DNA of 64,000 bases. Source: a virus. The notes beneath the pieces are model-generated. The model did not search any database, was not told the DNA's origin, and was given only the letters and a program-made list of their open reading frames with translations. Made by a program: the position numbers and the translations under genes. The DNA lies in the IMG/VR virus record IMGVR_UViG_3300044970_001685. One strand, 5' to 3'. Below are positions 1,731 through 18,043 of this stretch, piece after piece. Positions within the stretch are counted from its first letter, which is position 1. Every line of letters starts with the position of its first letter.

Positions 1731-2132
1731 ATGGCATACATCGGAAGACCACAACAAACTGGTCCATACATTAAACTTGATGATATTTCAGATCAGTTTG
1801 ACGGAACTAAAACCACTTTTAATTTGACACTTGGTGGTCAACCATACTTTACATCAAATCCTTATACATTACTTTTATCACTTGATGGTGTCATTCAAGA
1901 ACCCGTCGTTTCTTATGTCATTAGTGAGAATCAAATCACCTTTGCTGCTGCTCCTACATCAACAGGAAGATTTTACTGTATTGTGTTTGGAACTACTCTA
2001 AACACCGCTGCACTAACAAGTCTGACAATAGGAACCAGAACAACTGCTGCAACACTACCATTAAATGGCGAACAACTTGGAGTTTTACAAAGAGATGGAA
2101 CCAAAGGATTCATTGCATTTAATGTGGCATAA
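1731..2132 (+). CDS. Small tail-fibre/baseplate-associated structural protein
   Basis: MAYIG..P start and a KLDDIS..FDG....F.L...LLSLDGVIQEP repeat shared with 5919..7541. Confidence 0.7.
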   Translation: MAYIGRPQQTGPYIKLDDISDQFDGTKTTFNLTLGGQPYFTSNPYTLLLSLDGVIQEPVVSYVISENQITFAAAPTSTGRFYCIVFGTTLNTAALTSLTIGTRTTAATLPLNGEQLGVLQRDGTKGFIAFNVA

Positions 2133-2157
2133 ATAATCAAAAGACTATTCAGATATA

Positions 2158-2793
2158 ATGGCGAATAGATATCCGCTGATTTATAACTCCAATGCGAATC
2201 AACTTCAAGAACTCCAAGCAGGAGATAATCTTGATTTAGGTGGTTCGGGGATTAGTAGCGTAGGTAATATTAGTAATGTAGGTAATATAAACTCAACGGG
2301 TATTATCACTGCAACTTCTTTCAGTGGGACTTTTAGTGGCACTTCAACACTTGCATCGGGACTAACTGGTTCTCCAAGTATTGTTGTAAATAATCTTTAT
2401 ACATCTGGCATAAGCACTTTCACCCAAAACATAAATCTTCGTGATAATGTTAAGGCAAACTTTGGTGATGGTGATGATCTCAGAATCTATCACGATGGAA
2501 CAAACAGTTATGTAGAAGATACGGGAACTGGAAACTTATATCTTTCTGGTTCAACTGATGTCATCATTCAGCATCACAGCACTGGTGAAACGATGGCAAA
2601 GTTCACTGGCAATGGTGCCTCTGAACTTTATTATGATAATAGTAAAAAGTTTGAAACCGTTAGTGCTGGTGCTACGGTCACTGGAACTTTATATGCTACA
2701 AATTTTGTTGGTAATGGTTCACAACTAACTGGTATTGCTGCTGGTGGTGGTGAAGGTTCTTACAATGAACTTGATGGTATGCTTTTTGGATAA
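2158..2793 (+). CDS. Tail-fibre segment protein
   Basis: GIITATSF and FGDGDDLRIYHDG fibre repeats; MANR.PL N-terminus shared with 12786. Confidence 0.7.
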   Translation: MANRYPLIYNSNANQLQELQAGDNLDLGGSGISSVGNISNVGNINSTGIITATSFSGTFSGTSTLASGLTGSPSIVVNNLYTSGISTFTQNINLRDNVKANFGDGDDLRIYHDGTNSYVEDTGTGNLYLSGSTDVIIQHHSTGETMAKFTGNGASELYYDNSKKFETVSAGATVTGTLYATNFVGNGSQLTGIAAGGGEGSYNELDGMLFG

Positions 2794-2816
2794 ATAACTT
2801 AAAAAAGAACAATACG

Positions 2817-3224
2817 ATGTCACTCAAAAGAACTAAACTACTGGGAATACAATCAGTCACTGGTATTGCAACAGTAGGTATTTTGACAGTTGGAACAACT
2901 CAAACTGCTGGTGGAGTTGGAATTGCATCAACCACTTATGTTCGTGGTGTGATAATGCACAATACTGGATTTGCAACTTGCACTTCATCTCTTTATGTGT
3001 ATCCAAGTAGTGTCGCTTCTCCTGTGACAGGTGTTGGACAAACTGCTTATCGTTTAGCAAGAGTAGACTTATCGCAGAATGAAACTTTTTTCTTTGAAAT
3101 GAATTATCCTTTGGTTCTTACAAATCAAGAAAAGATCGTTGTGGAAGTTATACCACCAGGGTCGGGAGGAGCAGGTATTGGTAGTGTCGTGAACTATCAA
3201 ATTCTTGGTGATACTGATATCTGA
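2817..3224 (+). CDS. Small beta-rich structural/adaptor protein
   Basis: Late promoter upstream; precedes a Gly-rich gene, as 39636..40007 does. Confidence 0.6.
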   Translation: MSLKRTKLLGIQSVTGIATVGILTVGTTQTAGGVGIASTTYVRGVIMHNTGFATCTSSLYVYPSSVASPVTGVGQTAYRLARVDLSQNETFFFEMNYPLVLTNQEKIVVEVIPPGSGGAGIGSVVNYQILGDTDI

Positions 3225-3239
3225 TAAGAGGTAAATAGA

Positions 3240-4370
3240 ATGGGTGCAAAAAGTTCAGACAAAGGACCTAAAGGTGTTGGTAATAATAAAAGGTTAGATC
3301 AACATCTTGTTGAATATTTCAGTACAAAAAGAACGAGTGGAATATCGACAAATTATGTTCCTCCATTACCAAGTATAAATGCTACTGGAGGAACAATTAC
3401 CACTTGGAATGATTACACAATACATTCTTTTCCTGGTGGATCACTTGATAGTTCAAATCCATACACGTTTACTATTCCTGCAAATGCAACACCAATAATA
3501 CCGTCAACTAATTTTGACATTATTCTAGTCGCTGGTGGTGGTACTGGTGGAGATGATCAACCGGGTTCATATGGAGGAGGTGGTGGTGGAGCTGGTGGAG
3601 TAAGATTTATTCCACAAATATCATTACCTGTTGGGTCATATCCAATTGGTGTTGGTGGCGGTGCTGCAGCTGCTGCGGACGGCGCACAGGGACAACCAAC
3701 AGTTTTTAATGCCCCAAACGGTAATGGTGTTCCATCAATTACAGTTCATGGTGGAGGATATGGTGGAGCAGGTGGAGGAGGTGGTGGTGGAAACGGCGGT
3801 TGTGGTGGAGGAAAAGATTATCCCGGTCCAACAGCTCAATTTGGTGCAGGAAATAATGGAGCAGGAAATAGTCCAGAACCAAGAGCAAGTGGACCAACAT
3901 CACCCATTGGCGATACTAGATTCCAAGGAAGTCCTGGAAACGCAACTGCCTCTGATACATCTTACTCTGGTGGTGGCGGTGGTGGAGCAAGATATAGTCC
4001 ACCAACATATTACTCTTCACCAATACCAGGACCTGGTATCACTGTTCCTGCTCCCGCAGCTTCTTTTAGAGCGCAAGGTGGTGATGGAATTGATTTTAGT
4101 CCTATAATTGGACCAAGAGCAACTAATGGATTTGGTGATAGTAATTATCCAACAGAAGCTTGGTTTGGTGGTGGAGGTCATGGAGGTCAATACCCAGGAG
4201 GAACTGGTGCTCCTGGCACGGGAGGAAAAGGTGGTGGAGGTGGAGCTCCTCAACCATCAAAAAATGGACAACCAAATACTGGTGGAGGTGGAGCAGTTTA
4301 TCAGGGAAATGGTGGTCCAGGAATTGTATTAATCAGATACAAAAATACTGGAGGATCTACTGGATCTTAA
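3240..4370 (+). CDS. Glycine-rich tail-fibre tip/adhesin-like protein
   Basis: ATGG...YTIHSF, LVAGGG, poly-Gly runs, GPGIVLIRY near the C-terminus. Confidence 0.75.
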   Translation: MGAKSSDKGPKGVGNNKRLDQHLVEYFSTKRTSGISTNYVPPLPSINATGGTITTWNDYTIHSFPGGSLDSSNPYTFTIPANATPIIPSTNFDIILVAGGGTGGDDQPGSYGGGGGGAGGVRFIPQISLPVGSYPIGVGGGAAAAADGAQGQPTVFNAPNGNGVPSITVHGGGYGGAGGGGGGGNGGCGGGKDYPGPTAQFGAGNNGAGNSPEPRASGPTSPIGDTRFQGSPGNATASDTSYSGGGGGGARYSPPTYYSSPIPGPGITVPAPAASFRAQGGDGIDFSPIIGPRATNGFGDSNYPTEAWFGGGGHGGQYPGGTGAPGTGGKGGGGGAPQPSKNGQPNTGGGGAVYQGNGGPGIVLIRYKNTGGSTGS

Positions 4371-4396
4371 ATATAAAACTTTTGCTTTAAAATATC

Positions 4397-4972
4397 ATGA
4401 GAGAATTTTTTGTGCTGGATAATTTTTTTGAAGATCCAGATGAGGTTAGAAAAAGAGCTTTAAATTATTTTAGATTTTATAATTCAACAGATCATCCAGA
4501 TCCTCAACATCTATTGCAGTTTCCTGGATTGAGAACCAATTATATTAATCTTCAAGATACTGAATTATCTAAAATGATTATTGAAAAACAAGCGGCAATA
4601 ACAAACTTTATTACAAATAATTGCGTAGATTGGTCGCATGAAGACAATAGAGTGTGGAATACTTTTTCACTTACTTTTAAAAATATAAACAAGCAGTTAC
4701 CTCAATGGCATCAAGATTTTATTGGAGAAAATGATAATAAGTGTGAGTATTATTATGCTGGTGTTGTTTATTTAAATAAAAATGTAAGAAAAGGGAGAGG
4801 AACAAAAATAAAACTTTCTTCTGGTGAAATTGTAAATATTGAGAATAAGTATAATCGTTTTGTAATATACAATTCAAAACTTCCACATACGATTGCAAAA
4901 TCTTTTGGATGGAATAAAGATAATGGTAGACTTGTAATGTCTCAATTTTTTTCTTTCAATCTAAAAAAATAA
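4397..4972 (+). CDS. 2OG-Fe(II) oxygenase (DUF6445-like)
   Basis: LDNFF..PD.VR; PG.RT; HQD; AGVVYL; NRFVIY...H; distal R. Confidence 0.75.
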   Translation: MREFFVLDNFFEDPDEVRKRALNYFRFYNSTDHPDPQHLLQFPGLRTNYINLQDTELSKMIIEKQAAITNFITNNCVDWSHEDNRVWNTFSLTFKNINKQLPQWHQDFIGENDNKCEYYYAGVVYLNKNVRKGRGTKIKLSSGEIVNIENKYNRFVIYNSKLPHTIAKSFGWNKDNGRLVMSQFFSFNLKK

Positions 4973-4996
4973 ATAGATAAAACAAGAAGGGCAACG

Positions 4997-5856: not shown

Positions 5857-5880
5857 AAGGAGGGGCAACCCTCTTTTTTT
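5857..5880 (+). terminator. Intrinsic terminator
   Basis: AAGGAGGG-GCAA-CCCTCTTT hairpin plus T-tract after the stop at 5851. Confidence 0.85.
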
Positions 5881-5918: not shown

Positions 5919-7541
5919 ATGCCCCTTATCGGCAATCCTTATGTCGTTGGAGATACGACAGGAAACTTTAAGAAACTTGATAATCTTTCGTCATACACTT
6001 TGACGTTTGATCCGTCAGTTAAAGTATCTCTCACAAACGACACAATCACTGAAATAGATCATAGGTTCGTTACAGGACAGAGAGTCACCTATACGCACGG
6101 CGGTGGAAGTGCAATCGGTGGTCTGACTTCTGGAAGTGCTTATTATATTGTAAAAGAAGATGTAAATACGGTTAAACTTGCTTCAACATATGCAGATGCG
6201 CTTGCAAGCAATACAATCAATCTGACTTCTGTTGGATCGGGAACTGCTCATACACTAAATCTTGCTTTTGATGGGATTAACACAAGATTTAGAGCGACTT
6301 ATAATAATGGAACAGGAGCAAGAATCACAAATGCTTCTCAACTGACCATTTCAATCAATGGTGTTCTACAACAACCATTTGAGACTGCAACACCTTCAGA
6401 AGGTTATGGTATTGAGCATCCTGGTGTTATTGTTTTTTCAGTTGCTCCTGGTAGTGGCGATGTCTTCTGGGGAAACATTATTGCCAATAATTTCCCAACT
6501 TATGATATTAGTGATAATAAGGTTGATACTTTCACCGCAAATGGTGTAGATACTGATTTTACACTCTCCCAAGTAGCACCAAATAATGAAAGCGTTCTTG
6601 TAACGATTGATGGTGTTACACAATATCCAAGTGATAATGATACTGCAAGATCATATTCAATCTATGGTAGTGTTCTAAGTTTTACTGAGGCACCATCTCC
6701 TGGGGCATATATTCAGGCAAGACACATTGGTTTTGCTGGTGCCACAAGTAGTGCAGTCACTGGATTTAATGGAAGAACTGGTAATGTTGGACTAAGAACT
6801 GGTGATCCATTAGTCGGTGTTGGTATTCAATCTGGTGGACTCGTAGTTGGAACTGGTGTTACCATTCTAAACTTTGTAGGAACTGGAAATACTTTTGCCG
6901 TTGTCGGTGATCGTGTCGACATCAGCATTCAAGGTGGTGGAGGTAGTGGTTCACTTGTTGCCAAACAATCATTTACGATCACATCTACTCAGTCAGTTTT
7001 CACATTAACTGAGGAATATGATGCTGGAATGGTTGATGTTTATGTGAATGGTGTACGTCTACCTTCTGGTGATTTTACAGAAACTATTCCAAATATAGTC
7101 ACACTTGGAACAGCAGCAGAGGCAGGGGACATAGTTGAATTTATTTCATATAGTCAAAGAATTGAGAACACAGTTTTACAGTCAACACTTACAAATCTTC
7201 GTGTAACTGGCATTAGTTCTGTTGGCACTGGTATTACAATGACTGCTTCTTCTGGAAGCATAAGCGCAACAACATATTATGGTGATGGATCAAATCTAAC
7301 AAATCTAAAAGCGGGTGTAGGGACAAATGTTTCTACTGTAGATGGATTTACTTATATTGATCAAAGTGGAAAATTAATCACATCAAATATAGTATTTGAT
7401 ACAACAAACTCTGGAACTTCTGACTCTTATGTTCTATTGAAAGATCAAAAAATGACTATAAACACTGGTGTTGGAGTTACTATTGGTGATGGAAAACTTT
7501 TAATAATCAATGCTTTTGACTTACCAAATCCACTCACATAA
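5919..7541 (+). CDS. Tail-fibre/baseplate-wedge-like structural protein
   Basis: Repeated (I/V)(N/D)GV.Q.P beta-domains and fibre motifs. Confidence 0.7.
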   Translation: MPLIGNPYVVGDTTGNFKKLDNLSSYTLTFDPSVKVSLTNDTITEIDHRFVTGQRVTYTHGGGSAIGGLTSGSAYYIVKEDVNTVKLASTYADALASNTINLTSVGSGTAHTLNLAFDGINTRFRATYNNGTGARITNASQLTISINGVLQQPFETATPSEGYGIEHPGVIVFSVAPGSGDVFWGNIIANNFPTYDISDNKVDTFTANGVDTDFTLSQVAPNNESVLVTIDGVTQYPSDNDTARSYSIYGSVLSFTEAPSPGAYIQARHIGFAGATSSAVTGFNGRTGNVGLRTGDPLVGVGIQSGGLVVGTGVTILNFVGTGNTFAVVGDRVDISIQGGGGSGSLVAKQSFTITSTQSVFTLTEEYDAGMVDVYVNGVRLPSGDFTETIPNIVTLGTAAEAGDIVEFISYSQRIENTVLQSTLTNLRVTGISSVGTGITMTASSGSISATTYYGDGSNLTNLKAGVGTNVSTVDGFTYIDQSGKLITSNIVFDTTNSGTSDSYVLLKDQKMTINTGVGVTIGDGKLLIINAFDLPNPLT

Positions 7542-7564: not shown

Positions 7565-8227
7565 ATGTCGCAGTTAAATGTTGATACTATAAAAAATAAA
7601 GCAGGTACTGGCGGACCTACTTTACAAGCATTGACAGTAACAACTGATGCAACGGTTACTGGTGTTGTAACTGCTTCTAGTTTTGTTGGACCAGTAACTG
7701 GAAATGTAACTGGAAATATTAACTCTTCAGGTGTTTCTACGCTAACAACTCTAAACGGAACATCAGGTCTTGTAAGTCTTGGATCAACAATCAAGACCAA
7801 AGGATTTGTAGAAACTCAAACTTCTGCAACGACGACATCAAATGTTCTTTCCCTCGATGCATCAAACGGGACAGTATTTACTCATACGACAACTTCACAG
7901 ATTGGTATTGTTTCATTCAGAGGTATAAGAACAGAAACAGCAGGAACTCAAACATTCTCAGTTCTTGTAACACAAGGTGCATCACCAACCAATACAACAG
8001 GTGCGACAGGAATTGGAACTCAACTTGCAACTGTTGTAACAACTGGTGGAGTTGGATATAGCACTCATATTAAGGTTGGTGCAGGATCTTCAATTGTACT
8101 CACAGGAACTGCGGGTGCTCTGGATCTTCTGACCTTCATTGTTTCTTATGATGGAACCACACCTTCTAACAGTGCATTTAGAGTTGTAGGGTTTGCTGCA
8201 ACTGATTTCAGAAACGCTATTGTTTGA
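7565..8227 (+). CDS. Fibre adaptor protein
   Basis: MSQLNVDTIKNKAGTGGP N-terminus; C-domain resembles 12786. Confidence 0.65.
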   Translation: MSQLNVDTIKNKAGTGGPTLQALTVTTDATVTGVVTASSFVGPVTGNVTGNINSSGVSTLTTLNGTSGLVSLGSTIKTKGFVETQTSATTTSNVLSLDASNGTVFTHTTTSQIGIVSFRGIRTETAGTQTFSVLVTQGASPTNTTGATGIGTQLATVVTTGGVGYSTHIKVGAGSSIVLTGTAGALDLLTFIVSYDGTTPSNSAFRVVGFAATDFRNAIV

Positions 8228-8239: not shown

Positions 8240-9163
8240 ATGGCACCGTTAACGACTGGGGCGATTAAAGCGATTATTCAAGAGATTTCGCAACAAAGAG
8301 CAGGAAGAGGGCGTTATGCTTCTGCCGGCGGTGGCAGACAGGCTTTAACAGCAACTGGTGGATCTAAAACAACATCTGGTTTGTATACTATTCATACATT
8401 CACTTCATCTCAAGATTTTGTTGTTAGTTCTGGATTAGATACAATAGAATATTTAGTTATTGCTGGTGGTGGTGGAGGAGGAGGATATGGTGGGGGATTA
8501 TTTGGTGGTGGAGGAGGTGCCGGTGGATATAGAACTAATGTTCTAGGACAAACATCTGGAGGAAATTCTCCTGCTGAACCAATATCTACCAACATTGCTC
8601 CAGGAACATATCCAGTTATAGTTGGTGGTGGAGGAGCATCAGAAACGAGAGGGAGTCAATCTCATTTTGGTTCGGGAACTTCATTTCCAATACTTACAAC
8701 TGGTGGGGGGTGTGGTCTTAGAGGTTCTACAAACCCTGAATTTTCTGGTGGTTCTGGTGGTGGTGGACTTTGGCCTGGAGGATCTGGAGGACCAGGAACA
8801 CCAGGACAAGGATTTCCTGGTGGAACAACCGCAACTGGTCCCGGAGATCCAACACTTAATTTTGCGGGTGGTGGTGGATCCGGTGGAGCAGGAGAAAATG
8901 GTTCTTCTGGTATAAGTGGAGTAGGTGGTGCAGGTCTTGATTCAAATATTACCGGTTCAACAGTAAGAAGAGCAAGTGGTGGTAGTGGTGGAACATACAA
9001 TCAGAGTTTAGCACAACAAACTCCAGGAGGAGGTGGTAGAGGTGGAAGATATAGCCCTGGTGTATCGGAAACTAATGGAACTGCAAACACAGGAGGAGGT
9101 GGTGGTGGTGGAGTAACCAGTGGAGGTTCTGGATTTGTTGTTATTCGTTATCTTACAACATAA
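8240..9163 (+). CDS. Glycine-rich tip/adhesin-like protein
   Basis: MAP start, ATGG...YTIHTF, YLVIAGGGGG, GGSGFVVIRY end. Confidence 0.75.
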   Translation: MAPLTTGAIKAIIQEISQQRAGRGRYASAGGGRQALTATGGSKTTSGLYTIHTFTSSQDFVVSSGLDTIEYLVIAGGGGGGGYGGGLFGGGGGAGGYRTNVLGQTSGGNSPAEPISTNIAPGTYPVIVGGGGASETRGSQSHFGSGTSFPILTTGGGCGLRGSTNPEFSGGSGGGGLWPGGSGGPGTPGQGFPGGTTATGPGDPTLNFAGGGGSGGAGENGSSGISGVGGAGLDSNITGSTVRRASGGSGGTYNQSLAQQTPGGGGRGGRYSPGVSETNGTANTGGGGGGGVTSGGSGFVVIRYLTT

Positions 9164-9180: not shown

Positions 9181-9429
9181 ATGTCAAAGGCAAGAGATAT
9201 ATCAAAATTTGGTGATGAGCGTGGAGTTGGATCTCCTATACAAACAGGAGACCCAGGATCAATCTTTGCATCAGTTAGCACTGCTGCAACAGTCACTTCA
9301 AATACGGATCTATCTTCTGGTGGTCCTTTTATTGTCGCACAAGAAAAAGATCTTCACGTTGAGACTGGTATAAATTTAACTGTTGGAGATGGTAAAACAT
9401 TAGTAGTCAATTCTTTACAATTACCTTAA
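9181..9429 (+). CDS. Small structural linker protein
   Basis: MSKARD start; C-terminus LTVGDGKTLVVNSLQLP matches the C-terminus of 5919. Confidence 0.65.
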   Translation: MSKARDISKFGDERGVGSPIQTGDPGSIFASVSTAATVTSNTDLSSGGPFIVAQEKDLHVETGINLTVGDGKTLVVNSLQLP

Positions 9430-9459: not shown

Positions 9460-10089
9460 ATGTCCAATATAAATGTTGACACTATTAAGAATAGATCTGG
9501 GGCAGGAGCACCCAGTTTTCCTAATGGTTTAACCGTAACTGGTGTTGCGACTGCGACGACTTTTAGTGGTAATCTTACAGGAAATGCAACTGGACTCACT
9601 GGTTCTCCAAGCATTTCAGTTTCTGGTGTCAACAATACTGGTATTTCAACTTTAACTGACACAAGACTTTCATCTATTGCAGATAAAACAACTCTTGTAT
9701 CTGGTAACTCTGTAAGTCTTGTTTATAATACTGGTGGTGGTAATGTTGCGATCTGTACAAATCCAACAGGACCCATCACACTGAATGTAACTGGTATTCC
9801 AACTGATAGTTCTTTTGATAATCGTGCAATCTCATTTGCAGTAATCGTTCAGCAAGGTGCAACTGCTTATGGTTGTACGAGCGTTACATTAAACGGTGTT
9901 GCGTTTGGTGCAAATGCTGCTGCTGGTGTTCAGACTGCAATCTCTTATGTGTCTGGAACAGTCGCAACTGGAAGCACCACTGGTTATGATGTCTTTAACT
10001 TTACTGGCATTAATACAGTTGGTTCTGCGGCATCAACACTTAACTACAAACTACTCTCAAACGTAAGCGGCGGATATAGAAGGTACTGA
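9460..10089 (+). CDS. Fibre adaptor protein
   Basis: MSNINVDTIKNRSGAGAP; C-domain homologous to 16212. Confidence 0.65.
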   Translation: MSNINVDTIKNRSGAGAPSFPNGLTVTGVATATTFSGNLTGNATGLTGSPSISVSGVNNTGISTLTDTRLSSIADKTTLVSGNSVSLVYNTGGGNVAICTNPTGPITLNVTGIPTDSSFDNRAISFAVIVQQGATAYGCTSVTLNGVAFGANAAAGVQTAISYVSGTVATGSTTGYDVFNFTGINTVGSAASTLNYKLLSNVSGGYRRY

Positions 10090-10092: not shown

Positions 10093-12021
10093 ATGGCTCC
10101 TATTGTTACTTCTCTGGCATCGATTGTAAAACAGTTTGGTATTGGCGCTGTCCTTGCTGCTCCTTCTGGTGGTGGAACAACTGGTTATGCTGGTGCAAGT
10201 GGAGGTGTTATTAGTGATTATCCAGGACCAGGATCTGGTGGACCATATTATAGAGCACACATCTTTACTTCATCGGGAACTTTTACGGTTACTGATCCTA
10301 CGATTGACTTTGTTGACTATCTTGTAGTTGGTGGTGGAGGAGGAGGTGGTGGATCTTATGGTGGAGGAGGAGGTGCTGGTGCATTTAGAACTGCAACAGC
10401 ATTTCCCGTATCATCTTCTCCTGGATCTTATACAGTCACTATTGGCGCTGGTGGTCTTGGTGGATTCCCTGGTGGTGGATCTCCATATTACCCACCTTCT
10501 CCTGGTGTGTATGTATATCCAAGTGGAACATATGCAACAGGAGGTCCAGGTGGACAATCAGTTTTTGGTCCTATTACCAGTGCTGGTGGCGGTGGAGGTG
10601 GAGCTCGTGCAACTGCTGGTGGACCTTCGCCAGGACCAACAGGAGGTTCTGGGGGTGGAGCAGGAGATGGATATCCAACTGGTTCATTATCGGGAGGTTC
10701 AGGTGGAACTTATGGAAATCCTGGTGGAACTGGTAAAGTTGGTGCTGGTCCAACATATGGAGGTGGTGGCGGAGGTGGTTCTGGTGGTGCTGGAAGTCCA
10801 GAAGGTTCTGGAAGAACTGGTGGTTCGGGAACCGCAAATGTTTATGCGTATGGACCAACAAATCCAGTAACTTATGCTGGCGGTGGTGGGGGCGGTGCTT
10901 TTAGTGGTGCTAGTCCAGCTGCTGGTGGACCTGGTGGTGGAGGTTCTGGTGGTGGTACTGCTAATGCAACTGCTGGAACATATTCTCTTGGTGCCGGCGG
11001 CGGTGGTGGACCTGACACAAATAATACTGCTGGTGCAAATGGTGGTTCAGGTATTGTAGTCGTTCGTTATGCACTTCCTGCATCTACTGGAACCGCAAAG
11101 GCAACTGGTGGTTCTATCAGTTATTATGGTGGTCAAACGATTCATACCTTTACGAGTTCTGGTACTTTCCAAACAACATCAGCAATTCCAACAGCAGAAG
11201 TATTCATAGTCGCAGGTGGTGGTTCCGGTGGTCCTGGTTCTAATCCAACCAATTATGCATCAGGTGGTGGAGGTGGTGCTGGTGGTGTTGTTTATCATCC
11301 AGGTCTTTCTTTCCCATCACCATCAACTTATACGATTACTGTTGGTGCAGGTGGTCAAGCACCAAGAGGAAGTTCCCCTACCAATAGAGGAACTGATGGT
11401 AATGATACAACAGTAACTCACCCATCAGGTCCTTATGTAGCATATGGTGGTGGTGCTGGCGGTGCTGGATATCCGGGTGTTGGGTCAAATACTGGTGGTT
11501 CATCGGGTGGTGCTGGTAATAGTGGAACTGCTGCTCCGGCAGCACAACCAGCAACGAACTCCGGCGCAACGGAATATGGAAATCCTGGTGGTTCTGCCTC
11601 AGGTCCCGGATCACCAGCATATGGTTCTGGTGGAGGTGGTGGTGCTGGCGGTGTCGGTGGAACTGGTACTCCCAGCATCGGTGGACACGGTGGCATAGGA
11701 TTACAAGTACCTTCATCTTTTAGAGATCCCAATTCATCAGTTGGTTCTTCTGGTCCAGGTGGAGGCGGATATTGGTTTGCTGGTGGAGGCGGTGGTGGAA
11801 TTTATAATGGAACATCAACTGCTAAAGGTGGAGGTCCTGGTGGTCCTTATGCTGGTGCTGGAGATGGTGGTGGTGGTGGAAGTCCTTCGGGTGGTAATGG
11901 ATCTAATGCCTTAGAAAATACTGGATCTGGCGGTGGTGGAGCAAGTGAAACAGCAACTCCAGGAACTTTTTCTGGTGGCAATGGTGGTTCAGGAATCGTT
12001 ATGATCGCCTACCCAACATAA
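10093..12021 (+). CDS. Glycine-rich tip protein with two tandem Gly-rich domains
   Basis: Two units, each with H.FTSSGTF...poly-G...GGSGIV(V/M)(V/I)(R/A)Y. Confidence 0.75.
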   Translation: MAPIVTSLASIVKQFGIGAVLAAPSGGGTTGYAGASGGVISDYPGPGSGGPYYRAHIFTSSGTFTVTDPTIDFVDYLVVGGGGGGGGSYGGGGGAGAFRTATAFPVSSSPGSYTVTIGAGGLGGFPGGGSPYYPPSPGVYVYPSGTYATGGPGGQSVFGPITSAGGGGGGARATAGGPSPGPTGGSGGGAGDGYPTGSLSGGSGGTYGNPGGTGKVGAGPTYGGGGGGGSGGAGSPEGSGRTGGSGTANVYAYGPTNPVTYAGGGGGGAFSGASPAAGGPGGGGSGGGTANATAGTYSLGAGGGGGPDTNNTAGANGGSGIVVVRYALPASTGTAKATGGSISYYGGQTIHTFTSSGTFQTTSAIPTAEVFIVAGGGSGGPGSNPTNYASGGGGGAGGVVYHPGLSFPSPSTYTITVGAGGQAPRGSSPTNRGTDGNDTTVTHPSGPYVAYGGGAGGAGYPGVGSNTGGSSGGAGNSGTAAPAAQPATNSGATEYGNPGGSASGPGSPAYGSGGGGGAGGVGGTGTPSIGGHGGIGLQVPSSFRDPNSSVGSSGPGGGGYWFAGGGGGGIYNGTSTAKGGGPGGPYAGAGDGGGGGSPSGGNGSNALENTGSGGGGASETATPGTFSGGNGGSGIVMIAYPT

Positions 12022-12038: not shown

Positions 12039-12755
12039 ATGGCATTCACAAAGATACTTGGACCTGGTATTGCATCGGACACCAACGTACAGATAGGTAT
12101 CTTAACTGCTACAAATGGAATAAAAGGTATTGGTATTTACTCTGGTGGATATGCCATACACAGTGGTATTATAACGGCATTAAATTTCATTGGTGTCGGA
12201 AACACTTTTATCGTTCATGATAATCGAATTGATATTAGTATTTCTGGTTCTGGCGGAGGCGTTGGATTAGGAACACCTCTTAGTGAAGATACTGATAATC
12301 CATTAAATAAAATTTATTATACTGATTCTATTTTAAGTATTGGACAAACAGTTACCATTGATGTTCCTAATTCTACACAAGTTGCTTATACACAGTATGT
12401 TGATCTTGCAATTGAAGAAGGTGCTGATTTAATTATTGCTGATGGTGATGAATTTGTTGCTGATATTTTAGGTCTTTCTACGGAAGGAATGCAATCAATC
12501 TCTGGTGTTGGTGGAAGAGTTCGTGCTGATACTTTTACAAACAAAGCAGGAACTGGTGCTCCAACATTTCCAAGTGGAGTTCAAGTCGTTGGTGTTGCTA
12601 CCGCAACAAGTTTTAGTGGCGATGGATCTCAACTGACAGGACTTTCTAGAACTTTAACCATTGGAGTGAGAACTGGTACAGCAGTAACATTTAATATCAC
12701 AGGTTCATCTTTTAATGTAAATGGAAGAAGTGGTAATATTTCAATTGGTATCTAA
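12039..12755 (+). CDS. Fibre linker protein (fusion of several junction motifs)
   Basis: Contains LNFIGVGNTF (shared with 5919), RVRADTFTNKAGTGAP, and a C-terminal LTIGVRT. Confidence 0.65.
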   Translation: MAFTKILGPGIASDTNVQIGILTATNGIKGIGIYSGGYAIHSGIITALNFIGVGNTFIVHDNRIDISISGSGGGVGLGTPLSEDTDNPLNKIYYTDSILSIGQTVTIDVPNSTQVAYTQYVDLAIEEGADLIIADGDEFVADILGLSTEGMQSISGVGGRVRADTFTNKAGTGAPTFPSGVQVVGVATATSFSGDGSQLTGLSRTLTIGVRTGTAVTFNITGSSFNVNGRSGNISIGI

Positions 12756-12785: not shown

Positions 12786-13622
12786 ATGGCCAATAGATTT
12801 CCGTTAGTTGCCAATCCAAGTTCTAATCAAATACAGGAAATTCCTGCACTTGATAACTTAGATTTGGCAAGCTGTGGTATTGTTAATGTTGGTGATATTC
12901 AATCTGTTGGAAATTTAACTGTATCTGGAAACTTAACCGTCAATGGAACCACAACGACCATTGATACTGTAAATCTTACAATCGAAGATAAGAATATTGG
13001 TATTGGAACAACGACTTCACCATCAAACTCTACGGCAGATGGTGGTGGTATTACGATCTTCGGTGGTTCTGATGGAGATAAGACGTTAACTTGGGAAAGA
13101 GGAAGTAGTTCCTTTGTTTATTCCGATCCGAATAAGTTTAAGGGAGTTATTGAAACTGTTTCTGCCGCAACGACTTATAACAGTGGAAACAATCTAGTTC
13201 TTGAACTGGATGTAAGAAACGCAACGACTTATACTTATACAATTCCAACGGGTGCAAACATTGGTATTGTGTCGTTTAAGAATATGCCTGCCTTTACTGG
13301 TAATGCAAACGGTACAACGATTACTTGCATCTTTACTCAGATGTCCACAACTCCTGCTGGAACAGGAAACACAACTGGAACAACTGGTATTGGAACTAAC
13401 TGCACTGTGATTGGGTATGAAAACGGAGCAGCAGTTACAGGTATTTCAACCAGAGCATTAGTTGGTTCCGCAACGACTGTCACTCTATCTTCAACCGTAA
13501 ATGATAGAGATTTTGTTTCGTTCTTTGTACATTATACTGGTGGTTCTAATACCAATGCAACAAGTTATCAGATTTATGCAACCAAGAACGGCGGATTTAG
13601 ACAAGGTAACGTAGGAGTTTGA
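12786..13622 (+). CDS. Fibre adaptor protein
   Basis: MANRFPL start, GNLTVNGTTTTI...EDKNI fibre motif, C-domain like 7565. Confidence 0.65.
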   Translation: MANRFPLVANPSSNQIQEIPALDNLDLASCGIVNVGDIQSVGNLTVSGNLTVNGTTTTIDTVNLTIEDKNIGIGTTTSPSNSTADGGGITIFGGSDGDKTLTWERGSSSFVYSDPNKFKGVIETVSAATTYNSGNNLVLELDVRNATTYTYTIPTGANIGIVSFKNMPAFTGNANGTTITCIFTQMSTTPAGTGNTTGTTGIGTNCTVIGYENGAAVTGISTRALVGSATTVTLSSTVNDRDFVSFFVHYTGGSNTNATSYQIYATKNGGFRQGNVGV

Positions 13623-13626: not shown

Positions 13627-14343
13627 ATGGCACCAATTTTTACTGGCGGTAGAATGGGTTTTGGTAGAGTTGATGCTCCTACTGGTACTGCTGCTGTTCC
13701 ATTTTCCGCTACTGGTGGAAGTAAATCAAATCCAGGTGATGGATATGTATATCATGTATTTGACAGCTCAAGTAGTTTCTTAGTTCAATCTGGAAGTAGT
13801 CAAATTGAAGTTCTTCTTCAAGGTGGCGGTGGCGGTGGTCAGTCCATAGGTGGATCTGGAAGTAACTCACCGGGAGGCGCAGGTGGTGGTGGAGGTGCCA
13901 CCGGTGTTTGGTCTGTATCTTTAACTCCTGGAACATATCCAGTTTCTGTTGCTGGTGCAGGTGATGGCAGTCAACTCACAAATGTAAATAGTACTTTCAT
14001 ATCTGCTGGTGGTCCTGGTGGAAGTAATTCTACTCCTTGGCCTGGGGCATCTCTTACGGAAAATTATCCAGGACCAGCTGCCCCAGGTCGACCAGGTAGT
14101 TTTAGTGGAACTCCGGGAAACCCGGCGGGAGGAGTTCCACAACCAGGATCTCTTTGGTGGAGACCATATATATCGCCAGGATTTGGTGGGAATGGTGGTA
14201 ATCATGGTCAACCAGATTCAGCAACTCCTGGACAACCCTATGGCGGTGGAGGAGGTGGAGGTGCTGGTTCATTTGATGGTGGACCAGGTGGAACAGGAAA
14301 ACCAGGCGCACCAGGAAGAGTTGTAATTAGATATCAAATATAG
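13627..14343 (+). CDS. Glycine-rich tip/adhesin-like protein
   Basis: MAP start, ATGG...YVYHVF, GRVVIRY end. Confidence 0.75.
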   Translation: MAPIFTGGRMGFGRVDAPTGTAAVPFSATGGSKSNPGDGYVYHVFDSSSSFLVQSGSSQIEVLLQGGGGGGQSIGGSGSNSPGGAGGGGGATGVWSVSLTPGTYPVSVAGAGDGSQLTNVNSTFISAGGPGGSNSTPWPGASLTENYPGPAAPGRPGSFSGTPGNPAGGVPQPGSLWWRPYISPGFGGNGGNHGQPDSATPGQPYGGGGGGGAGSFDGGPGGTGKPGAPGRVVIRYQI

Positions 14344-14370: not shown

Positions 14371-14937
14371 ATGAATTTTATAGAAAAATATGATAATATA
14401 CTTACAAAAGATGAATGCGAGTATTTAATTAATCTTTTTGAATCTTGTCCATTTCATGTTGAAGGACGTGCAGGAGGAGAAGTTAATTATGAAAAGAAAA
14501 AAGGAATAGGTATTGATTTATTCTTTAAGACTGATGGGGAAAATATTGTCACTGAAGGTAATCAAAGAATAAATGAAATTATTTTACCATCAGTGATTGA
14601 ATGTTTGAAGGAATATAAAAAAAAATACCCATTAATAGATAAAGTTTCCTCCTGGAACGTTGATAATTATTATCACATTCAAAGATTTAAAGAGAATGAG
14701 GGATATTATATAATTCATTGTGAACAGGAGGGTATTACATCAAAAAGAATGTTAGTATGGATGATTTATCTTAATGATGCAAAAAGCGGAACTAGGTTTT
14801 ATCATCAAAAACTAGATATGAAAGCAAAAGTAGGAAGAATAGTGATTTGGCCTGCTGCATGGACTCATATGCATTCTGGTATTATCCCCAATAAAGGAAC
14901 TAAGTATATTGCAACTGGTTGGTTTTCTTATGATTAA
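14371..14937 (+). CDS. Prolyl-4-hydroxylase-like 2OG-Fe(II) oxygenase
   Basis: HCE...RMLVWMIYLND..SGT.F...WPA.WTH.H.G.....KYIATGW. Confidence 0.85.
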   Translation: MNFIEKYDNILTKDECEYLINLFESCPFHVEGRAGGEVNYEKKKGIGIDLFFKTDGENIVTEGNQRINEIILPSVIECLKEYKKKYPLIDKVSSWNVDNYYHIQRFKENEGYYIIHCEQEGITSKRMLVWMIYLNDAKSGTRFYHQKLDMKAKVGRIVIWPAAWTHMHSGIIPNKGTKYIATGWFSYD

Positions 14938-15538
14938 AGTAATTGATAATTTTTTACCTGATCCATATTTTGTAAGAAAGGAAGCTTTCAAGAGTAAAAT
15001 AAAAGATAATTATCTTACGCATCCAGGCACAAGAAAAATCATTCCAACAAAAATTGAAAATTTGGTACTAAATCTTTTAAAAAAAGAGTTAAATGAAGAT
15101 ATTAGAGTTGCTGAGTGTGGATTTGATTTTATTGATGAGAAATATGTTACTGGTATTCCGCATTCAGATTCTGGAAAAAATGGATATGATGGATTTAAAT
15201 ATTCTGCTGTAATATATCTAAACGAAAACCCACCAGAAAAAACAGGTATAGAAATATATGATTATGCAAAAAATAACAGACATTTATATTTTCATACGCA
15301 AAATGCCACAGATTTAAAAGAAGGATTTTTTGCATCCAAAAAAAGTTTTGTGGATAAATTTATCTGGAAAAATTTGATAGTAAAGAGATGTACAAAGGGT
15401 CTTAAGAATAAAATAGAAATATCAAATAAATTTAATAGAATGGTGGTTTTTGATTCTGATAGAATACATAGACCTCAAAATTATTTTGGAACTAATAAAG
15501 AAAACTGCAGATTGTCCATGATATTTTTTTTAAAATGA
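14930..15538 (+). CDS. 2OG-Fe(II) oxygenase (DUF6445-like)
   Basis: IDNFLPDP, HSD, SAVIYL, NRMVVFDS..IH, RL. ATG 14930 preferred over the TTG start of the track ORF. Confidence 0.75.
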   Translation: MIKVIDNFLPDPYFVRKEAFKSKIKDNYLTHPGTRKIIPTKIENLVLNLLKKELNEDIRVAECGFDFIDEKYVTGIPHSDSGKNGYDGFKYSAVIYLNENPPEKTGIEIYDYAKNNRHLYFHTQNATDLKEGFFASKKSFVDKFIWKNLIVKRCTKGLKNKIEISNKFNRMVVFDSDRIHRPQNYFGTNKENCRLSMIFFLK

Positions 15539-16029
15539 ATTTTCCAATAAAATCAAAGTTGTATATTAATCCTATTTACAAATATTTTCTGTTTCAATAT
15601 ATTAAAAATAACTTGTACTCTCATATAAGTTGTATGGGAGATTCATACTCAACTTTTGAATATGAAAGATATTTGCATAGAAAAAAATTATTTAAAAAAT
15701 TATCAAATTCAATTCAAAATAAAGTTGAAACACTTCTGGAATGTGAAGGATACATGCACAGCATGTGGTTTAATGTAAATAGAATAGGATCAAAAACTAC
15801 ATTACATCACCATAATGATCAAAAGTCAGACAATAAATTTTCTGGAGTATACTATTTTTCAAAACCAAAAAATTCTGGCAATTTTATTTTTTACGATCCT
15901 CAGTTGACAACATTAGAAGTAAAAACTAATGACATCATAATATTTAATGCAAGTTTGTTGCATGAAACCGAAGTTAATGATTCAAATAATGATAGGATAG
16001 TTTGTGGATTTAATTTTATGAAATTCTAG
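15535..16029 (+). CDS. 2OG-Fe(II) oxygenase (TIGR02466-like)
   Basis: W.N.N...H.H...SGVYY...IIFNA.L.H....N....R....FN. Confidence 0.8.
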   Translation: MNFPIKSKLYINPIYKYFLFQYIKNNLYSHISCMGDSYSTFEYERYLHRKKLFKKLSNSIQNKVETLLECEGYMHSMWFNVNRIGSKTTLHHHNDQKSDNKFSGVYYFSKPKNSGNFIFYDPQLTTLEVKTNDIIIFNASLLHETEVNDSNNDRIVCGFNFMKF

Positions 16030-16078
16030 ACTTACAGACATTTCTCAAAAACTCATATATAATATCACTGAATGCATT

Positions 16079-16162
16079 TTTGATAGTAATAATTTTCACG
16101 ATAGCAGTTCACCATTTCAACAAGATTTTAGATGTGTAATCAATATAGTTTCAAAATTTTAA
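16079..16162 (+). pseudogene. C-terminal remnant of a 2OG-Fe(II) oxygenase
   Basis: Reads FDSNNFHDSSSPFQQDFRCVINIVSKF*, matching the distal His...Arg strand of 18052..18567; no start codon. Confidence 0.55.
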
Positions 16163-16211
16163 TTTATTTTTGTGAATAAATACTTTTAATATTGGACAGT
16201 CTTATAATCTA

Positions 16212-17045
16212 ATGTCAAGAATTAGAGCAGACAAAATAGTTAATCGTGCGGGAACCGGTGCTCCACAACTAACCTATGGCGCTGAAATTCCTTCTGGGCA
16301 AGAATTAACTGGTGCTGGTAATATTAATATTGCAGGCATAGCGACGGCTGTTAGTTTTAGTGGTAATTTAGTTGGTAATGTAACAGGTATTGCAACAACT
16401 GCTTATGGACTAACTGGAAGTCCTAATATTACAGTTGGTTCTATCACAGCTTCTAGTGCATCGATTAGTGGCAATGTTTCTATTGCTGGAACTTTAACTT
16501 ATGAAGATGTAACTAATATTGATTCTATTGGTCTTGTTACTGCAAGAACGGGAATAAATGTAACTGCTGGCGGAGTTAATGTTACTTCTGGTGGTTTAAA
16601 CATAACTGCTGGAGTTTCTACATTCTCCGGAGCAATGAGAGTTACATCTGGAATGGAAAAAGTTCATAGACATTCTGGAAATACTGTCACACTAACATAT
16701 AATTCTACATCAAGTTCAAATGTTGGGTACGCAATAAATCCAAGTGGAAATATTACAGTCAATGTTGTAGGTATTCCAACATCAAGTGATTATGATGATC
16801 ACTCAATTTCTTTTGCTGTGATTGTAAACAATACAGGAACTGCAAGAACTTGCACTGCTGTTAACTTGAATGGTGTTCCAGAAACGATTCGTTGGGCAGG
16901 TGGTTCATTAGAAACAGCACTTTCTGGTGTTACAACAACGACAGGACATACAATCTTTAGTTTCACTGGAATTAATACTATTGGTTCTGCATCAACAGCA
17001 GCAAATTATCAAGTTCTTGGAGTAGTTAGTGGAGGTTTCTGGTAA
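16212..17045 (+). CDS. Fibre adaptor protein
   Basis: MSRIRADKIVNRAGTGAP; GTLTYEDVTNIDSIG fibre motif; C-domain homologous to 9460. Confidence 0.65.
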   Translation: MSRIRADKIVNRAGTGAPQLTYGAEIPSGQELTGAGNINIAGIATAVSFSGNLVGNVTGIATTAYGLTGSPNITVGSITASSASISGNVSIAGTLTYEDVTNIDSIGLVTARTGINVTAGGVNVTSGGLNITAGVSTFSGAMRVTSGMEKVHRHSGNTVTLTYNSTSSSNVGYAINPSGNITVNVVGIPTSSDYDDHSISFAVIVNNTGTARTCTAVNLNGVPETIRWAGGSLETALSGVTTTTGHTIFSFTGINTIGSASTAANYQVLGVVSGGFW

Positions 17046-17047
17046 TT

Positions 17048-18043
17048 ATGGCACCTTTATTGGGAAGACTTGGTGTAGATAGAAGTGGTTTTGGATTTGG
17101 CGGTAGAAGAAAACTTTTAAGTACATTAGTTTTTGTACCAAAAGAATACGTATTTTTTGGTACAACAGGATCAAGCACAACAGGAACTTTACCAGATTTA
17201 TCTGGTTATACCACAATAAAAGTATCTGGTGTTGGTGCTGGTGGTGATGGAAATCCTAGTCATCCAGGGGGATGTTGTCCTGGTCGAGGTGGTGGTGGAG
17301 GCGCTGCGGCAAATATTCGTGGTGATAGTTTTCCTGTTCCCGGAAATGGTATTACAAGCATTTATTATTCAGTTGGTGGGTCTAATGGCGCAGACACTTT
17401 CATTCAAATAAATGGTCCTGGTGGGACTGATTTAATCAGATTTCGTGGAGGATCTCCAAATACGGGAGAAACTGCGGGACCAGGTGGACCTTCAACAGGA
17501 GGTGGACCAAATTGTGTATCTGGCAGTCCTGGTGGTGCTGGTGCTCCTAGATTTTCCAACGGCAATCCTGCACCCGGAGCAACTAATGCATGTGGAGGTG
17601 GTGGGGGTTCTGGTGGAGCAGTAGACAATGGACAACCAGGAACTACCGGTGGTAGTGGTGGTCCTAGTAATTTTACACCAATTGCACCTAATGTAATTAC
17701 TACAACTGCTTTTGGTCCTGCACCAACAACATGGAGTATTGGTCCGGCAGGTCCACATGCTGGCGGTGGTGGTGGATATGGATCTACCGCAGGTACTAGT
17801 AATGGAACAGATGCCGGTGACGTATCATGGGCAGAAGGTGGTGGAGGTGCTGGGTATCCTATCGGACCTGGATCTGGAGCTCCAGGATCAGGTGGTGCAG
17901 GTGCGGGTATTAGATGGACTGATCCTTCGGATCCAATAAATAATGGCAAATTTTTTGGTGGAGGTGGAGGAGGTATTGGTGGAAGCATTAACCCAGTAGA
18001 TGGATATGGTGGCAAAGGATTTTTAATTATTCAACTTTCTTAA
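17048..18043 (+). CDS. Glycine-rich tip/adhesin-like protein
   Basis: MAP start, poly-Gly/Pro, GGKGFLIIQL end. Confidence 0.75.
   Translation: MAPLLGRLGVDRSGFGFGGRRKLLSTLVFVPKEYVFFGTTGSSTTGTLPDLSGYTTIKVSGVGAGGDGNPSHPGGCCPGRGGGGGAAANIRGDSFPVPGNGITSIYYSVGGSNGADTFIQINGPGGTDLIRFRGGSPNTGETAGPGGPSTGGGPNCVSGSPGGAGAPRFSNGNPAPGATNACGGGGGSGGAVDNGQPGTTGGSGGPSNFTPIAPNVITTTAFGPAPTTWSIGPAGPHAGGGGGYGSTAGTSNGTDAGDVSWAEGGGGAGYPIGPGSGAPGSGGAGAGIRWTDPSDPINNGKFFGGGGGGIGGSINPVDGYGGKGFLIIQLS

What the first reader, a model, noticed from the sequence alone, without database searches (positions are those of the whole stretch)
1731..18043. Plug-and-socket code across tail-fibre genes: each C-terminal motif predicts the next gene's N-terminal motif
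Three junction pairs recur. (A) Genes ending LTIG.RT..A.T...G....V..R.G (1731, 12039) are each followed by MANR(Y/F)PL..N...NQ.QE..A.DNLDL (2158, 12786). (B) Genes ending T(I/V)GDGK.L..N...LP (5919, 9181) are followed by MS.(L/I)NVDTIKN..G.G.P (7565, 9460), and 12039 carries both halves fused (LIIADGDEF...RVRADTFTNKAGTGAP). (C) Adaptor C-domains (7565~12786; 9460~16212) are followed within 2-12 nt by Gly-rich genes starting MAP. N- and C-modules are shuffled between paralogues. Inference: cognate docking domains let fibres be built combinatorially from separate polypeptides, giving several alternative or branched receptor-binding appendages.
Basis: partly seen in the sequence, partly recalled or inferred. 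Interest (0 to 1): 0.75.

Follow-up and report, generated by a model that had tools for sequence, protein, structure and literature searches.

The report
Matched joints between cyanophage fibre proteins
A T4-like cyanophage encodes its host-binding fibres as chains of two to four small genes whose touching protein ends carry matched, class-specific motifs, and the same pairing recurs in hundreds of uncultured marine phages, so these are probably non-covalent joints like those of the T4 long tail fibre, though binding itself is untested.

Summary
Window 1731-18043 holds five fibre cassettes: stem, then adaptor, then a glycine-rich tip. Two tail/head motif pairs sit at the stated gene boundaries.

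In 1521 distinct adjacent gene pairs from 245 related loci:
- the A tail was followed by the A head in 25 of 25 cases;
- the B tail was followed by the B head in 24 of 32 cases, and 6 of the other 8 were weak B-like heads;
- no cross pairs were seen.

Supporting evidence:
- The B pair also occurs fused in one chain in at least 15 proteins, and the relative of g12039 is split exactly at that point.
- Some A-tail proteins are only 47 aa long.
- Conservation is at protein level; DNA identity is 51-65%.
- The tips fold like the cyanophage Pam3 gp24 glycine-rich domain.

Limits:
- 57-73% of heads have no tail gene upstream.
- Covariation within a class is weak.
- The A head is never fused.
- No interface could be modelled.
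- Branching is not shown.

Verdict: probably end-to-end docking joints that are generic within each class. This is a new variant of the T4 gp34-37/gp38 and Klebsiella docking-peptide principle. Earlier AI reports of this scan describe the same kind of cassette in other genomes.

The parts
1731..2132 (+). Cassette 1 stem (133 aa). It has a root-type N-end and an Ig-like domain. The class-A tail is aa 94-133 (nt 2010-2129).
   Evidence: PHROG tail-fibre and virion-structural hits over aa 1-103. The root domain is the N-terminus of single-chain fibres in pelagiphage HTVC106P and of the S-SRM01 stem. The A-tail profile matches it.
2158..2793 (+). Cassette 1 shaft (211 aa). The class-A head is at nt 2158-2247. 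The C-end motif (nt 2767-2790) is of the type that precedes connector proteins.
   Evidence: Regex and profile match. The tail-to-connector pairing was seen in 24 distinct loci.
2817..3224 (+). Small connector protein (135 aa, phrog_20100) between the shaft and the tip.
   Evidence: PHROG E=3.5e-45. Relatives lie between a shaft and a glycine-rich tip.
3240..4370 (+). Cassette 1 glycine-rich tip (376 aa).
   Evidence: Pfam Gly_rich_2, E=3e-13.
5919..7541 (+). Cassette 2 stem (540 aa) with repeated Ig-like domains. The class-B tail is aa 512-536 (nt 7452-7526).
   Evidence: A terminator-like hairpin lies upstream at 5857-5876.
7565..8227 (+). Cassette 2 adaptor (220 aa). The class-B head is at nt 7565-7636. 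Its C-domain is of the g12786 type.
8240..9163 (+). Cassette 2 glycine-rich tip (307 aa). It starts 12 nt after the adaptor stop codon.
   Evidence: Pfam Gly_rich_2. AF2 pLDDT 86. Foldseek matches to Pam3 gp24, the Bxb1 tail tip and the ALK glycine-rich domain.
9181..9429 (+). Cassette 3 minimal stem (82 aa). The class-B tail is at nt 9352-9426.
9460..10089 (+). Cassette 3 adaptor (209 aa). The class-B head is at nt 9460-9531. Its C-domain is of the g16212 type.
10093..12021 (+). Cassette 3 tip (642 aa) with two Gly_rich_2 stretches. It starts 3 nt after the adaptor stop codon.
   Evidence: Pfam E=2e-24, 2 stretches.
12039..12755 (+). Cassette 4 stem (238 aa). It carries an internal B tail (nt 12408-12476), a 13-aa linker, an internal B head (nt 12516-12581) and a class-A tail (nt 12639-12752).
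   Evidence: A homologue in L082/L084/L085 is split exactly at the B junction.
12786..13622 (+). Cassette 4 adaptor (278 aa). The class-A head is at nt 12786-12875. Its C-domain is homologous to that of g7565.
13627..14343 (+). Cassette 4 glycine-rich tip (238 aa). It starts 4 nt after the adaptor stop codon.
   Evidence: Pfam Gly_rich_2, E=3.8e-6.
16212..17045 (+). Cassette 5 adaptor (277 aa). The class-B head is at nt 16212-16283. No tail-bearing gene lies upstream, so it is an 'orphan' head.
17048..18043 (+). Cassette 5 glycine-rich tip-like protein (331 aa). It starts 2 nt after the adaptor stop codon.
   Evidence: Composition and alignment with the other tips. It has no Pfam or PHROG hit.

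Best explanation
The region encodes five tail-fibre-like appendages of a T4-like cyanomyophage. Each is built from two to four separately translated proteins, encoded in the order in which they join.

Proposed chain:
1. A stem has a root-type N-end, presumably for attachment to the virion, and ends in a class-A or class-B tail.
2. The next protein, a shaft or adaptor, starts with the matching class-A or class-B head.
3. Its C-domain, or a small phrog_20100 connector, carries a glycine-rich tip. The tip is presumed to bind the receptor and has a short N-terminal docking segment.

I infer that each tail and the head that follows it form a non-covalent end-to-end joint, as between gp34, gp35, gp36, gp37 and gp38 of T-even phages.

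Shown here: the class-specific adjacency, the fused and split forms of the B joint, minimal connector proteins, selection at protein level, and the fold of the tip.

Inferred: physical contact, trimeric state and presence in the virion.

The joints appear generic within a class rather than pair-specific. Heads can also occur without an adjacent tail gene, so heads probably also dock to other sites or to stems encoded elsewhere.
For: 1. Tail predicts head. A tail to A head 25/25. B tail to B head 24/32, with 6 of the other 8 being weak B-like heads. No cross pairs among 1521 distinct adjacent gene pairs.
2. Within one homologous cluster of 86 adaptor bodies, the upstream tail class followed the head class 28/28. 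In the window, g7565 and g12786 share a C-domain but differ in head, and their upstream tails differ to match.
3. Rosetta-stone evidence. At least 15 distinct proteins carry the B tail, a 10-15 aa variable linker and the B head in one chain. Split homologues end exactly where the linker begins.
4. Minimal 47-48 aa proteins consist only of a root-type N-end plus an A tail. Their stop codon overlaps the start of the A-head gene.
5. The g1731 root domain is the N-terminus of single-chain fibres elsewhere, so a stem alone would be a fibre without a distal part.
6. The junction motifs are only 51-65% identical in DNA, with synonymous changes. Heads are the best-conserved part: mean column identity 57% for B heads and 75% for A heads.
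7. In complete genomes all B motifs lie inside the fibre cluster, and every B tail is followed directly by a B head.
8. The tip model (pLDDT 86) matches Pam3 gp24. Its N-terminal helix is low-confidence in isolation. In Pam3 gp24 and S16 gp38 the N-terminal helices are the docking element (PMC9608196).
9. Transcription layout parallels T4. Stem and adaptor genes each have a late-promoter-like motif 21-36 nt upstream. Tips have none and start 2-12 nt after the adaptor. In T4, gene 36 has its own late promoter and genes 37-38 are co-transcribed (PMC3004832).
Against: - There is no direct evidence of binding or of presence in virions.
- 57% of A heads and 73% of B heads have no tail gene upstream. 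Bellamy has 5 B heads for 3 B tails, and no further B tail anywhere in its genome. Syn1 gp219 has an A head and no upstream gene on its strand.
- The A head is at residues 1-32 in 148 of the 150 best representatives out of 1431 matching clusters, so no fusion evidence exists for junction A.
- Tail-head covariation within class B is weak (Mantel r=0.22; AMI 0.14-0.28). It is no stronger than covariation between the stem body and the head (r=0.27). The tail goes with its own body (r=0.83).
- Adjacent gene ends are tightly linked, so shared descent alone can produce matched pairs.
- The AF2 monomer model of the fused protein was uninformative.
Confidence: 0.6

Rival explanations
1. Synteny relic. 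The tails and heads are simply the ends of two protein families that sit side by side because of shared descent, including an old gene fission. The heads' real partner is elsewhere, for example a baseplate site, and tail and head do not touch.
For: Most heads lack a tail gene upstream. B heads outnumber B tails in complete genomes. The A head is strictly N-terminal and never fused. Subtype covariation is weak and no better than linkage. The linker in the fused forms is variable and Gly/Ser/Thr-rich, which is compatible with two independent domains.
Against: Tail classes never cross with head classes (49 of 49), even where adaptor bodies are homologous. The 47-aa proteins with only a root-type N-end and an A tail have no obvious role other than bridging. 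Stems that consist only of a fibre root domain need a distal part. Fragments left by a fission must still assemble to work.
Confidence: 0.2
2. The tail-bearing upstream proteins are assembly chaperones for the downstream fibre and are absent from the virion.
For: Small genes next to fibre genes are often chaperones, for example Pam3 gp25 and T4 gp38/gp57A (PMC9608196, PMC3004832). None of the stems has virion proteomics behind it.
Against: Known fibre chaperones lie downstream and have TFA-type folds. The stems contain fibre-shaft repeats and the Ig-like root domain of structural proteins. They range from 47 to 986 aa. In at least 15 cases they are fused in cis to the shaft.
Confidence: 0.1
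3. The motifs are DNA-level recombination linkers, conserved sequence at module borders that promotes exchange as proposed for T-even fibre genes, with no structural role of their own.
For: The modules are clearly shuffled. Breakpoints appear to fall between tail and head, since the tail covaries with its own body and the head with its own protein.
Against: The window's junction copies share only 51-65% DNA identity with many synonymous differences, and their intergenic spacers share only 58-62%. Conservation is therefore on the protein. The motif is kept across contigs too diverged for homologous recombination.
Confidence: 0.05

Closest known systems
T4 long tail fibre: gp34, gp35, gp36 and gp37 joined end to end (PMC3004832, PMC5537660)
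   Same: Several fibre segments are encoded by neighbouring genes in the order of assembly and joined non-covalently. Trimeric gp36 binds the N-terminal region of gp37. Some segments have their own late promoter, while the last fibre gene is co-transcribed with the gene that follows it. The layout here is the same.
   Different: No sequence relation to gp34-37 was found with Pfam or PHROGs. Segments here are much smaller, 47-540 aa. The joints fall into recurring, interchangeable motif classes, each present two to four times in this window and at gene ends in many contigs. There is no monomeric knee protein.
gp37-gp38 adhesin tip of T2/T6/S16-type phages, and the cyanophage Pam3 fibre gp24 (PDB 6F45, 7YPX, 7YFW; PMC9608196)
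   Same: A glycine-rich lattice domain sits at the distal end and is preceded by an N-terminal helical docking segment. In S16 the adhesin is a separate protein attached to the gp37 tip. The window's tip model matches Pam3 gp24 best (Foldseek E=2.7e-4, probability 1.0), and the tips are encoded 2-12 nt after the adaptor.
   Different: TM-scores are low (0.33-0.45) and sequence identity is 15-20%. Pam3 gp24 docks on the baseplate itself and needs the chaperone gp25. Here the tip follows an adaptor C-domain or a phrog_20100 connector, and some tips have two glycine-rich domains.
Branching domain plus conserved docking peptide of Klebsiella podophages KP32/K11/KP34 (PMC13352976)
   Same: A short conserved N-terminal peptide on one receptor-binding protein docks on a domain of another. 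The pair is portable between scaffolds and was shown by experiment to be necessary.
   Different: Different phage type, different motifs and geometry. There the second protein branches off the side of the first. Here the data suggest linear end-to-end joints, and no T4 gp10-like branching domain was detected.
PHROG families phrog_28668, phrog_36132, phrog_6002 (N-end) and phrog_20100
   Same: The window's stems, adaptors and connector are members by profile score.
   Different: phrog_28668, phrog_36132 and phrog_20100 are annotated 'unknown function'. phrog_6002 is annotated only 'virion structural protein'. None records the pairing of ends.

Membership tests
T4-type multi-subunit long tail fibre (gp34-gp37) | Sequence homology to gp34, gp35, gp36 or gp37 | tested here: not met
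   Pfam and PHROG scans of all stems and adaptors gave no gp34-37 family. PHROG 'long tail fiber distal subunit' hits occur only in the separate 1850-aa gene at 42483-48035.
T4-type multi-subunit long tail fibre (gp34-gp37) | Consecutive genes encode segments that join end to end in the virion | not testable with these tools
   Only comparative evidence is available: class-matched adjacency and cis-fused forms.
T4-type multi-subunit long tail fibre (gp34-gp37) | Fibre genes clustered, with separate late promoters for some segments and the last fibre gene co-transcribed with the gene that follows it | tested here: met
   A late-promoter-like motif lies 21-36 nt before each stem and adaptor start codon and none before the tips. 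Compare PMC3004832. The promoters are matches to a motif only.
Glycine-rich receptor-binding tip (Pfam Gly_rich_2; Pam3 gp24 / S16 gp38 type) | Pfam Gly_rich_2 above the gathering score | tested here: met
   g3240, g8240, g10093 and g13627 score 27.5-87 bits against a cut-off of 24.3. g17048 does not match.
Glycine-rich receptor-binding tip (Pfam Gly_rich_2; Pam3 gp24 / S16 gp38 type) | Fold: beta-sandwich followed by a glycine-rich lattice, resembling solved examples | tested here: met
   AF2 model of g8240: pLDDT 86, pTM 0.84. Foldseek top hits are 7ypx_A, 9d93_Qb, 7yfw_a and the ALK/LTK glycine-rich domains. TM-scores are only 0.33-0.45.
Glycine-rich receptor-binding tip (Pam3 gp24 / S16 gp38 type) | N-terminal helical segment that docks the tip on its carrier | tested here: inconclusive
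   A helix is predicted at aa 6-22 with pLDDT about 50. Tip head classes track the upstream C-end class in other loci. No complex model was possible.
Klebsiella-type branching domain / conserved-peptide system | T4 gp10-like branching domain on the primary receptor-binding protein | tested here: not met
   No such Pfam or PHROG domain was found in any stem or adaptor.
Klebsiella-type branching domain / conserved-peptide system | Conserved N-terminal docking peptide on the secondary protein | tested here: met
   The A head is at residues 1-32 in 148 of the 150 best of 1431 representative clusters. B heads are at residue 1 in 113 ORFs. This is an analogous feature, not homology.
PHROG phrog_28668 / phrog_36132 / phrog_20100 | Profile match | tested here: met
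   phrog_28668: g12039 E=1e-16, plus g9181 and g5919. phrog_36132: g12786 E=1.5e-69, g16212 E=6.5e-31, plus g7565 and g9460. phrog_20100: g2817 E=3.5e-45.

The most novel reading that the evidence does not exclude
Marine T4-like cyanophages and many other aquatic phages share a small set of orthogonal, portable docking interfaces: at least two stem-shaft classes plus several carrier-tip classes. These include free-standing 47-aa bridge peptides. With them, receptor-binding tips, shafts and stems encoded as separate genes can be recombined at gene boundaries and still assemble. This would be a general snap-together system underlying host-range evolution of the phages that infect the ocean's main phototrophs.
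Probability: 0.45. Interest if true: 0.7.

Novelty: new variant of a known kind. Interest (0 to 1): 0.55.

Why it matters
Tail fibres set the host range of the phages that infect Prochlorococcus and Synechococcus. In T4-like cyanophages they are almost wholly unannotated: three of the four PHROG families matched here are annotated 'unknown function'.

If the matched ends are docking joints, thousands of small hypothetical proteins gain a role. The A head alone is found in 1431 representative clusters. The reading would also explain why fibre clusters recombine at gene boundaries without loss of function. It would give defined, portable interfaces for swapping receptor-binding tips in laboratory phage-host work.

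The idea can be tested directly in cultured phages such as Bellamy and S-SRM01.

Tried and rejected
- **Near-identical DNA in cultured phages:** none found. No whole genome is held for the window.
- **Sequence search of solved structures** with g12039, g16212 and g8240: nothing meaningful.
- **AF2 monomer of the natural fusion g12039** with a 20-row alignment: pLDDT 48, unusable. No multimer tool was available. I considered a single-chain read-through construct of adjacent in-frame genes but dropped it, because the tool returns no contacts or PAE.
- **Stop-codon read-through or frameshift joining tail and head genes:** rejected. Gap lengths are in frame in only 11 of 31 B junctions, the spacers contain several stop codons, and heads start with their own ATG.
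- **Recent gene conversion:** rejected from the 51-65% DNA identity.
- **Fused A tail plus A head:** sought in 245 loci and in 1.84 billion representative proteins; none found.
- **Pair-specific coevolution:** Mantel and clustering tests gave only a weak signal.
- **Protein atlas:** only leads (Mtd_N, Phage_phiTE_241_C) at scores of 0.89-0.90, not confirmed by Pfam.
- **Literature:** three full-text searches found no description of cyanomyophage fibre junction motifs.
Full report
**What is there.**
The window comes from a divergent T4-like cyanomyophage. Its baseplate genes are about 67% identical in DNA to S-SRM01, S-SKS1 and P-SSM2. No whole genome is held for it.

Between 1731 and 18043, all on the + strand, lie five fibre cassettes:
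1. g1731 stem, g2158 shaft, g2817 small connector (phrog_20100), g3240 glycine-rich tip.
2. g5919 stem, g7565 adaptor, g8240 tip.
3. g9181 stem (82 aa), g9460 adaptor, g10093 double tip.
4. g12039 stem, g12786 adaptor, g13627 tip.
5. g16212 adaptor, g17048 tip-like protein.

2OG-Fe(II) oxygenase genes lie between the cassettes.

I name the motifs as follows:
- CA: class-A tail, at 2010-2129 and 12639-12752.
- NA: class-A head, at 2158-2247 and 12786-12875.
- CB: class-B tail, at 7452-7526 and 9352-9426, and internally at 12408-12476.
- NB: class-B head, at 7565-7636, 9460-9531 and 16212-16283, and internally at 12516-12581.

**Check of the observation.**
Among all six-frame ORFs of the window they match only the stated genes. 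The A-tail pattern needs gaps, but a profile of the two tails finds 30 distinct relatives, all C-terminal, including intermediate forms. The similarities between adaptor C-domains and the 2-12 nt spacing of the tips are as stated.

**Generalisation.**
I fetched 245 loci. Most are IMG/VR contigs found with g16212, g12039, g2158 and an A-head alignment. I added stretches of the cultured phages Bellamy, Syn1, S-SRM01 and HTVC106P. I called ORFs and scanned them with profiles of the four motifs.

| Upstream tail | A head next | B head next | Other next |
|---|---|---|---|
| CA | 25 | 0 | 0 |
| CB | 0 | 24 | 8 |

These counts are from 1521 distinct same-strand adjacent gene pairs. Six of the eight 'other' cases are weak B-like heads below the threshold. 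Fisher p is 1e-36 for A, 6e-24 for B, and 2e-14 for the class match.

Within a single-linkage cluster of 86 homologous adaptor bodies, the upstream tail class followed the head class in 28 of 28 cases. So the tail tracks the head and not the rest of the adaptor. The window shows this with g7565 and g12786.

In whole genomes all B motifs lie inside the fibre cluster, and each B tail is followed directly by a B head. Some cyanomyophages have none.

**Evidence that the two ends belong together physically.**
- At least 15 distinct proteins, g12039 among them, carry the B tail, a variable 10-15 aa linker and the B head in one chain. Split homologues stop exactly where the linker starts, and the next gene begins two residues before the conserved core of the head. 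g12039 aa 1-147 aligns to the very end of a 272-aa protein of L082, and aa 160-187 aligns to residues 3-31 of the next gene's product.
- Six distinct 47-48 aa proteins consist of a root-type N-end and a CA tail only. Their stop codon overlaps the start of an NA gene.
- The root domain of g1731 is the N-terminus of a 458-aa single-chain protein that I read as the fibre (annotated 'hypothetical') in pelagiphage HTVC106P. It is also the N-terminus of a 355-aa S-SRM01 'virion structural protein' that ends in a CB-like tail and is followed by a B-like head.
- Conservation is on the protein. Junction copies in the window share only 51-65% DNA identity, with synonymous differences. Gap lengths show no in-frame bias.

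**What limits the claim.**
- Heads often stand alone: 39 of 69 A heads and 68 of 93 B heads have no tail gene within 160 nt upstream.
- Bellamy has five B heads and three B tails in its whole genome.
- The A head lies at residues 1-32 in 148 of the best 150 of 1431 representative clusters, so it is never fused.
- Within class B the tail covaries strongly with its own body (Mantel r=0.83) and only weakly with the following head (r=0.22, p=0.002; AMI 0.14-0.28). The head covaries more with its own protein (r=0.42). Recombination therefore often falls between tail and head. The joint, if real, must be generic within a class.
- The window's two B pairs are the same subtype.
- The AF2 monomer of g12039 was unusable, and no multimer tool was available.
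- Nothing speaks for or against branching.

**The distal junctions.**
The g8240 model is confident (pLDDT 86). It shows a low-confidence N-terminal helix, a beta-sandwich and a glycine-rich region. Foldseek places it next to the cyanophage Pam3 fibre gp24, the Bxb1 tail tip and the ALK/LTK glycine-rich domain. In Pam3 gp24 and S16 gp38 the N-terminal helices are the docking element and the glycine-rich domain recognises the host (PMC9608196).

Across loci, the C-end of the carrier predicts the head of the tip. One adaptor C-end type was followed by one tip head type in 11 of 11 cases, on both NA-headed and NB-headed adaptors. Other C-end types pair with their own head variants. Shafts with the g2158-type C-end are followed by phrog_20100 connectors, and the connector's C-end subtype predicts the tip head subtype in 24 distinct loci. 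In the window itself all four adaptor-linked tips start alike, so this junction does not discriminate here.

**Expression layout.**
A late-promoter-like motif lies 21-36 nt before the start codon of every stem, adaptor and connector gene. None precedes the adaptor-linked tips, which start 2-12 nt after the adaptor. This parallels T4, where gene 36 has its own late promoter and genes 37-38 are co-transcribed (PMC3004832). It also accounts for the conserved 23-36 nt spacers at the A and B junctions.

**Mechanism proposed.**
- Shown: gene order, motif classes, fused and split forms, and the tip fold.
- Inferred: each cassette makes one fibre. The stem attaches by its root-type N-end. Its tail and the next protein's head form a non-covalent joint. 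The adaptor C-domain or the connector holds the N-terminal segment of a glycine-rich receptor-binding tip, made in step with it through close translational spacing.
- Orphan heads would dock on stems encoded elsewhere or directly on the baseplate.

I put this at 0.6. The rivals are a synteny relic without contact (0.2), upstream chaperones (0.1) and DNA-level recombination linkers (0.05).

**Comparison and novelty.**
The principle is known from three systems: the T4 gp34-37 joints, the gp37-gp38 tip of T2/S16-type phages, and the experimentally proven branching-domain and docking-peptide pair of Klebsiella podophages (PMC13352976). The proteins here show no detectable homology to those joints. 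The motif classes, the 47-aa bridges and the class-exclusive adjacency were not found in the literature I could search.

Earlier AI reports of this scan describe the same kind of cassette in other genomes. They are not independent evidence.

I rate it a new variant of a known kind, with interest 0.55.

Noticed in passing
window 1710, 2129, 2790, 5885, 7538, 9160, 9434, 12018, 12759, 16176: A T4-late-promoter-like motif (core TAAATA, often overlapping the stop codon of the previous gene) lies 21-36 nt before the start codon of every stem, adaptor and connector gene. None precedes the four adaptor-linked tip genes. Twelve of the 26 core matches in the first 19 kb sit in this position.
   Followed up: partly
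window 394-1721, 4397-4972, 14371-16029, 18052-18567: A sulfotransferase-like gene and six genes of 2OG-Fe(II) oxygenase type or similar sit between the fibre cassettes. They may modify the fibres. Bellamy has the same interleaving (genes 45-48).
   Followed up: no
window 4997-5383, 5429-5851 and 40870-41331: Small paralogous proteins (phrog_7759, function unknown). Similar small proteins recur between fibre cassettes in many contigs and often directly follow a fibre gene, so they may be assembly factors.
   Followed up: no
L183, L191, L194, L195, L204, L243 (about 2855-3001 in most): 47-48 aa genes encode only a root-type N-end plus a class-A tail. Their stop codon overlaps the start of the A-head gene. 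They are easily missed by gene callers.
   Followed up: partly
L247:5709-9236 and L001 (Bellamy genes 31-38, 49-54): The cultured phage Bellamy holds a complete four-protein chain (genes 35-38: stem, shaft, connector, tip). It also holds a version with root and shaft in one chain (genes 31-33). That makes it a usable test system.
   Followed up: partly
window 10093-12021: This tip carries two Gly_rich_2 domains in tandem (642 aa). GC content rises to 0.50 here, against about 0.36 for the window.
   Followed up: no
window 40016-40834 and 42483-52152: Further appendage genes outside the finding. One is a 272-aa glycine-rich protein. Another is an 1850-aa tail fibre (phrog_529) whose C-end resembles the intramolecular chaperone end of endosialidase-type fibres. 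There are also a 668-aa and a 684-aa tail protein.
   Followed up: no
P0001: A 2623-aa representative protein contains 14 partial copies of the central part of the A-head motif. It is the only repeated internal occurrence seen.
   Followed up: no
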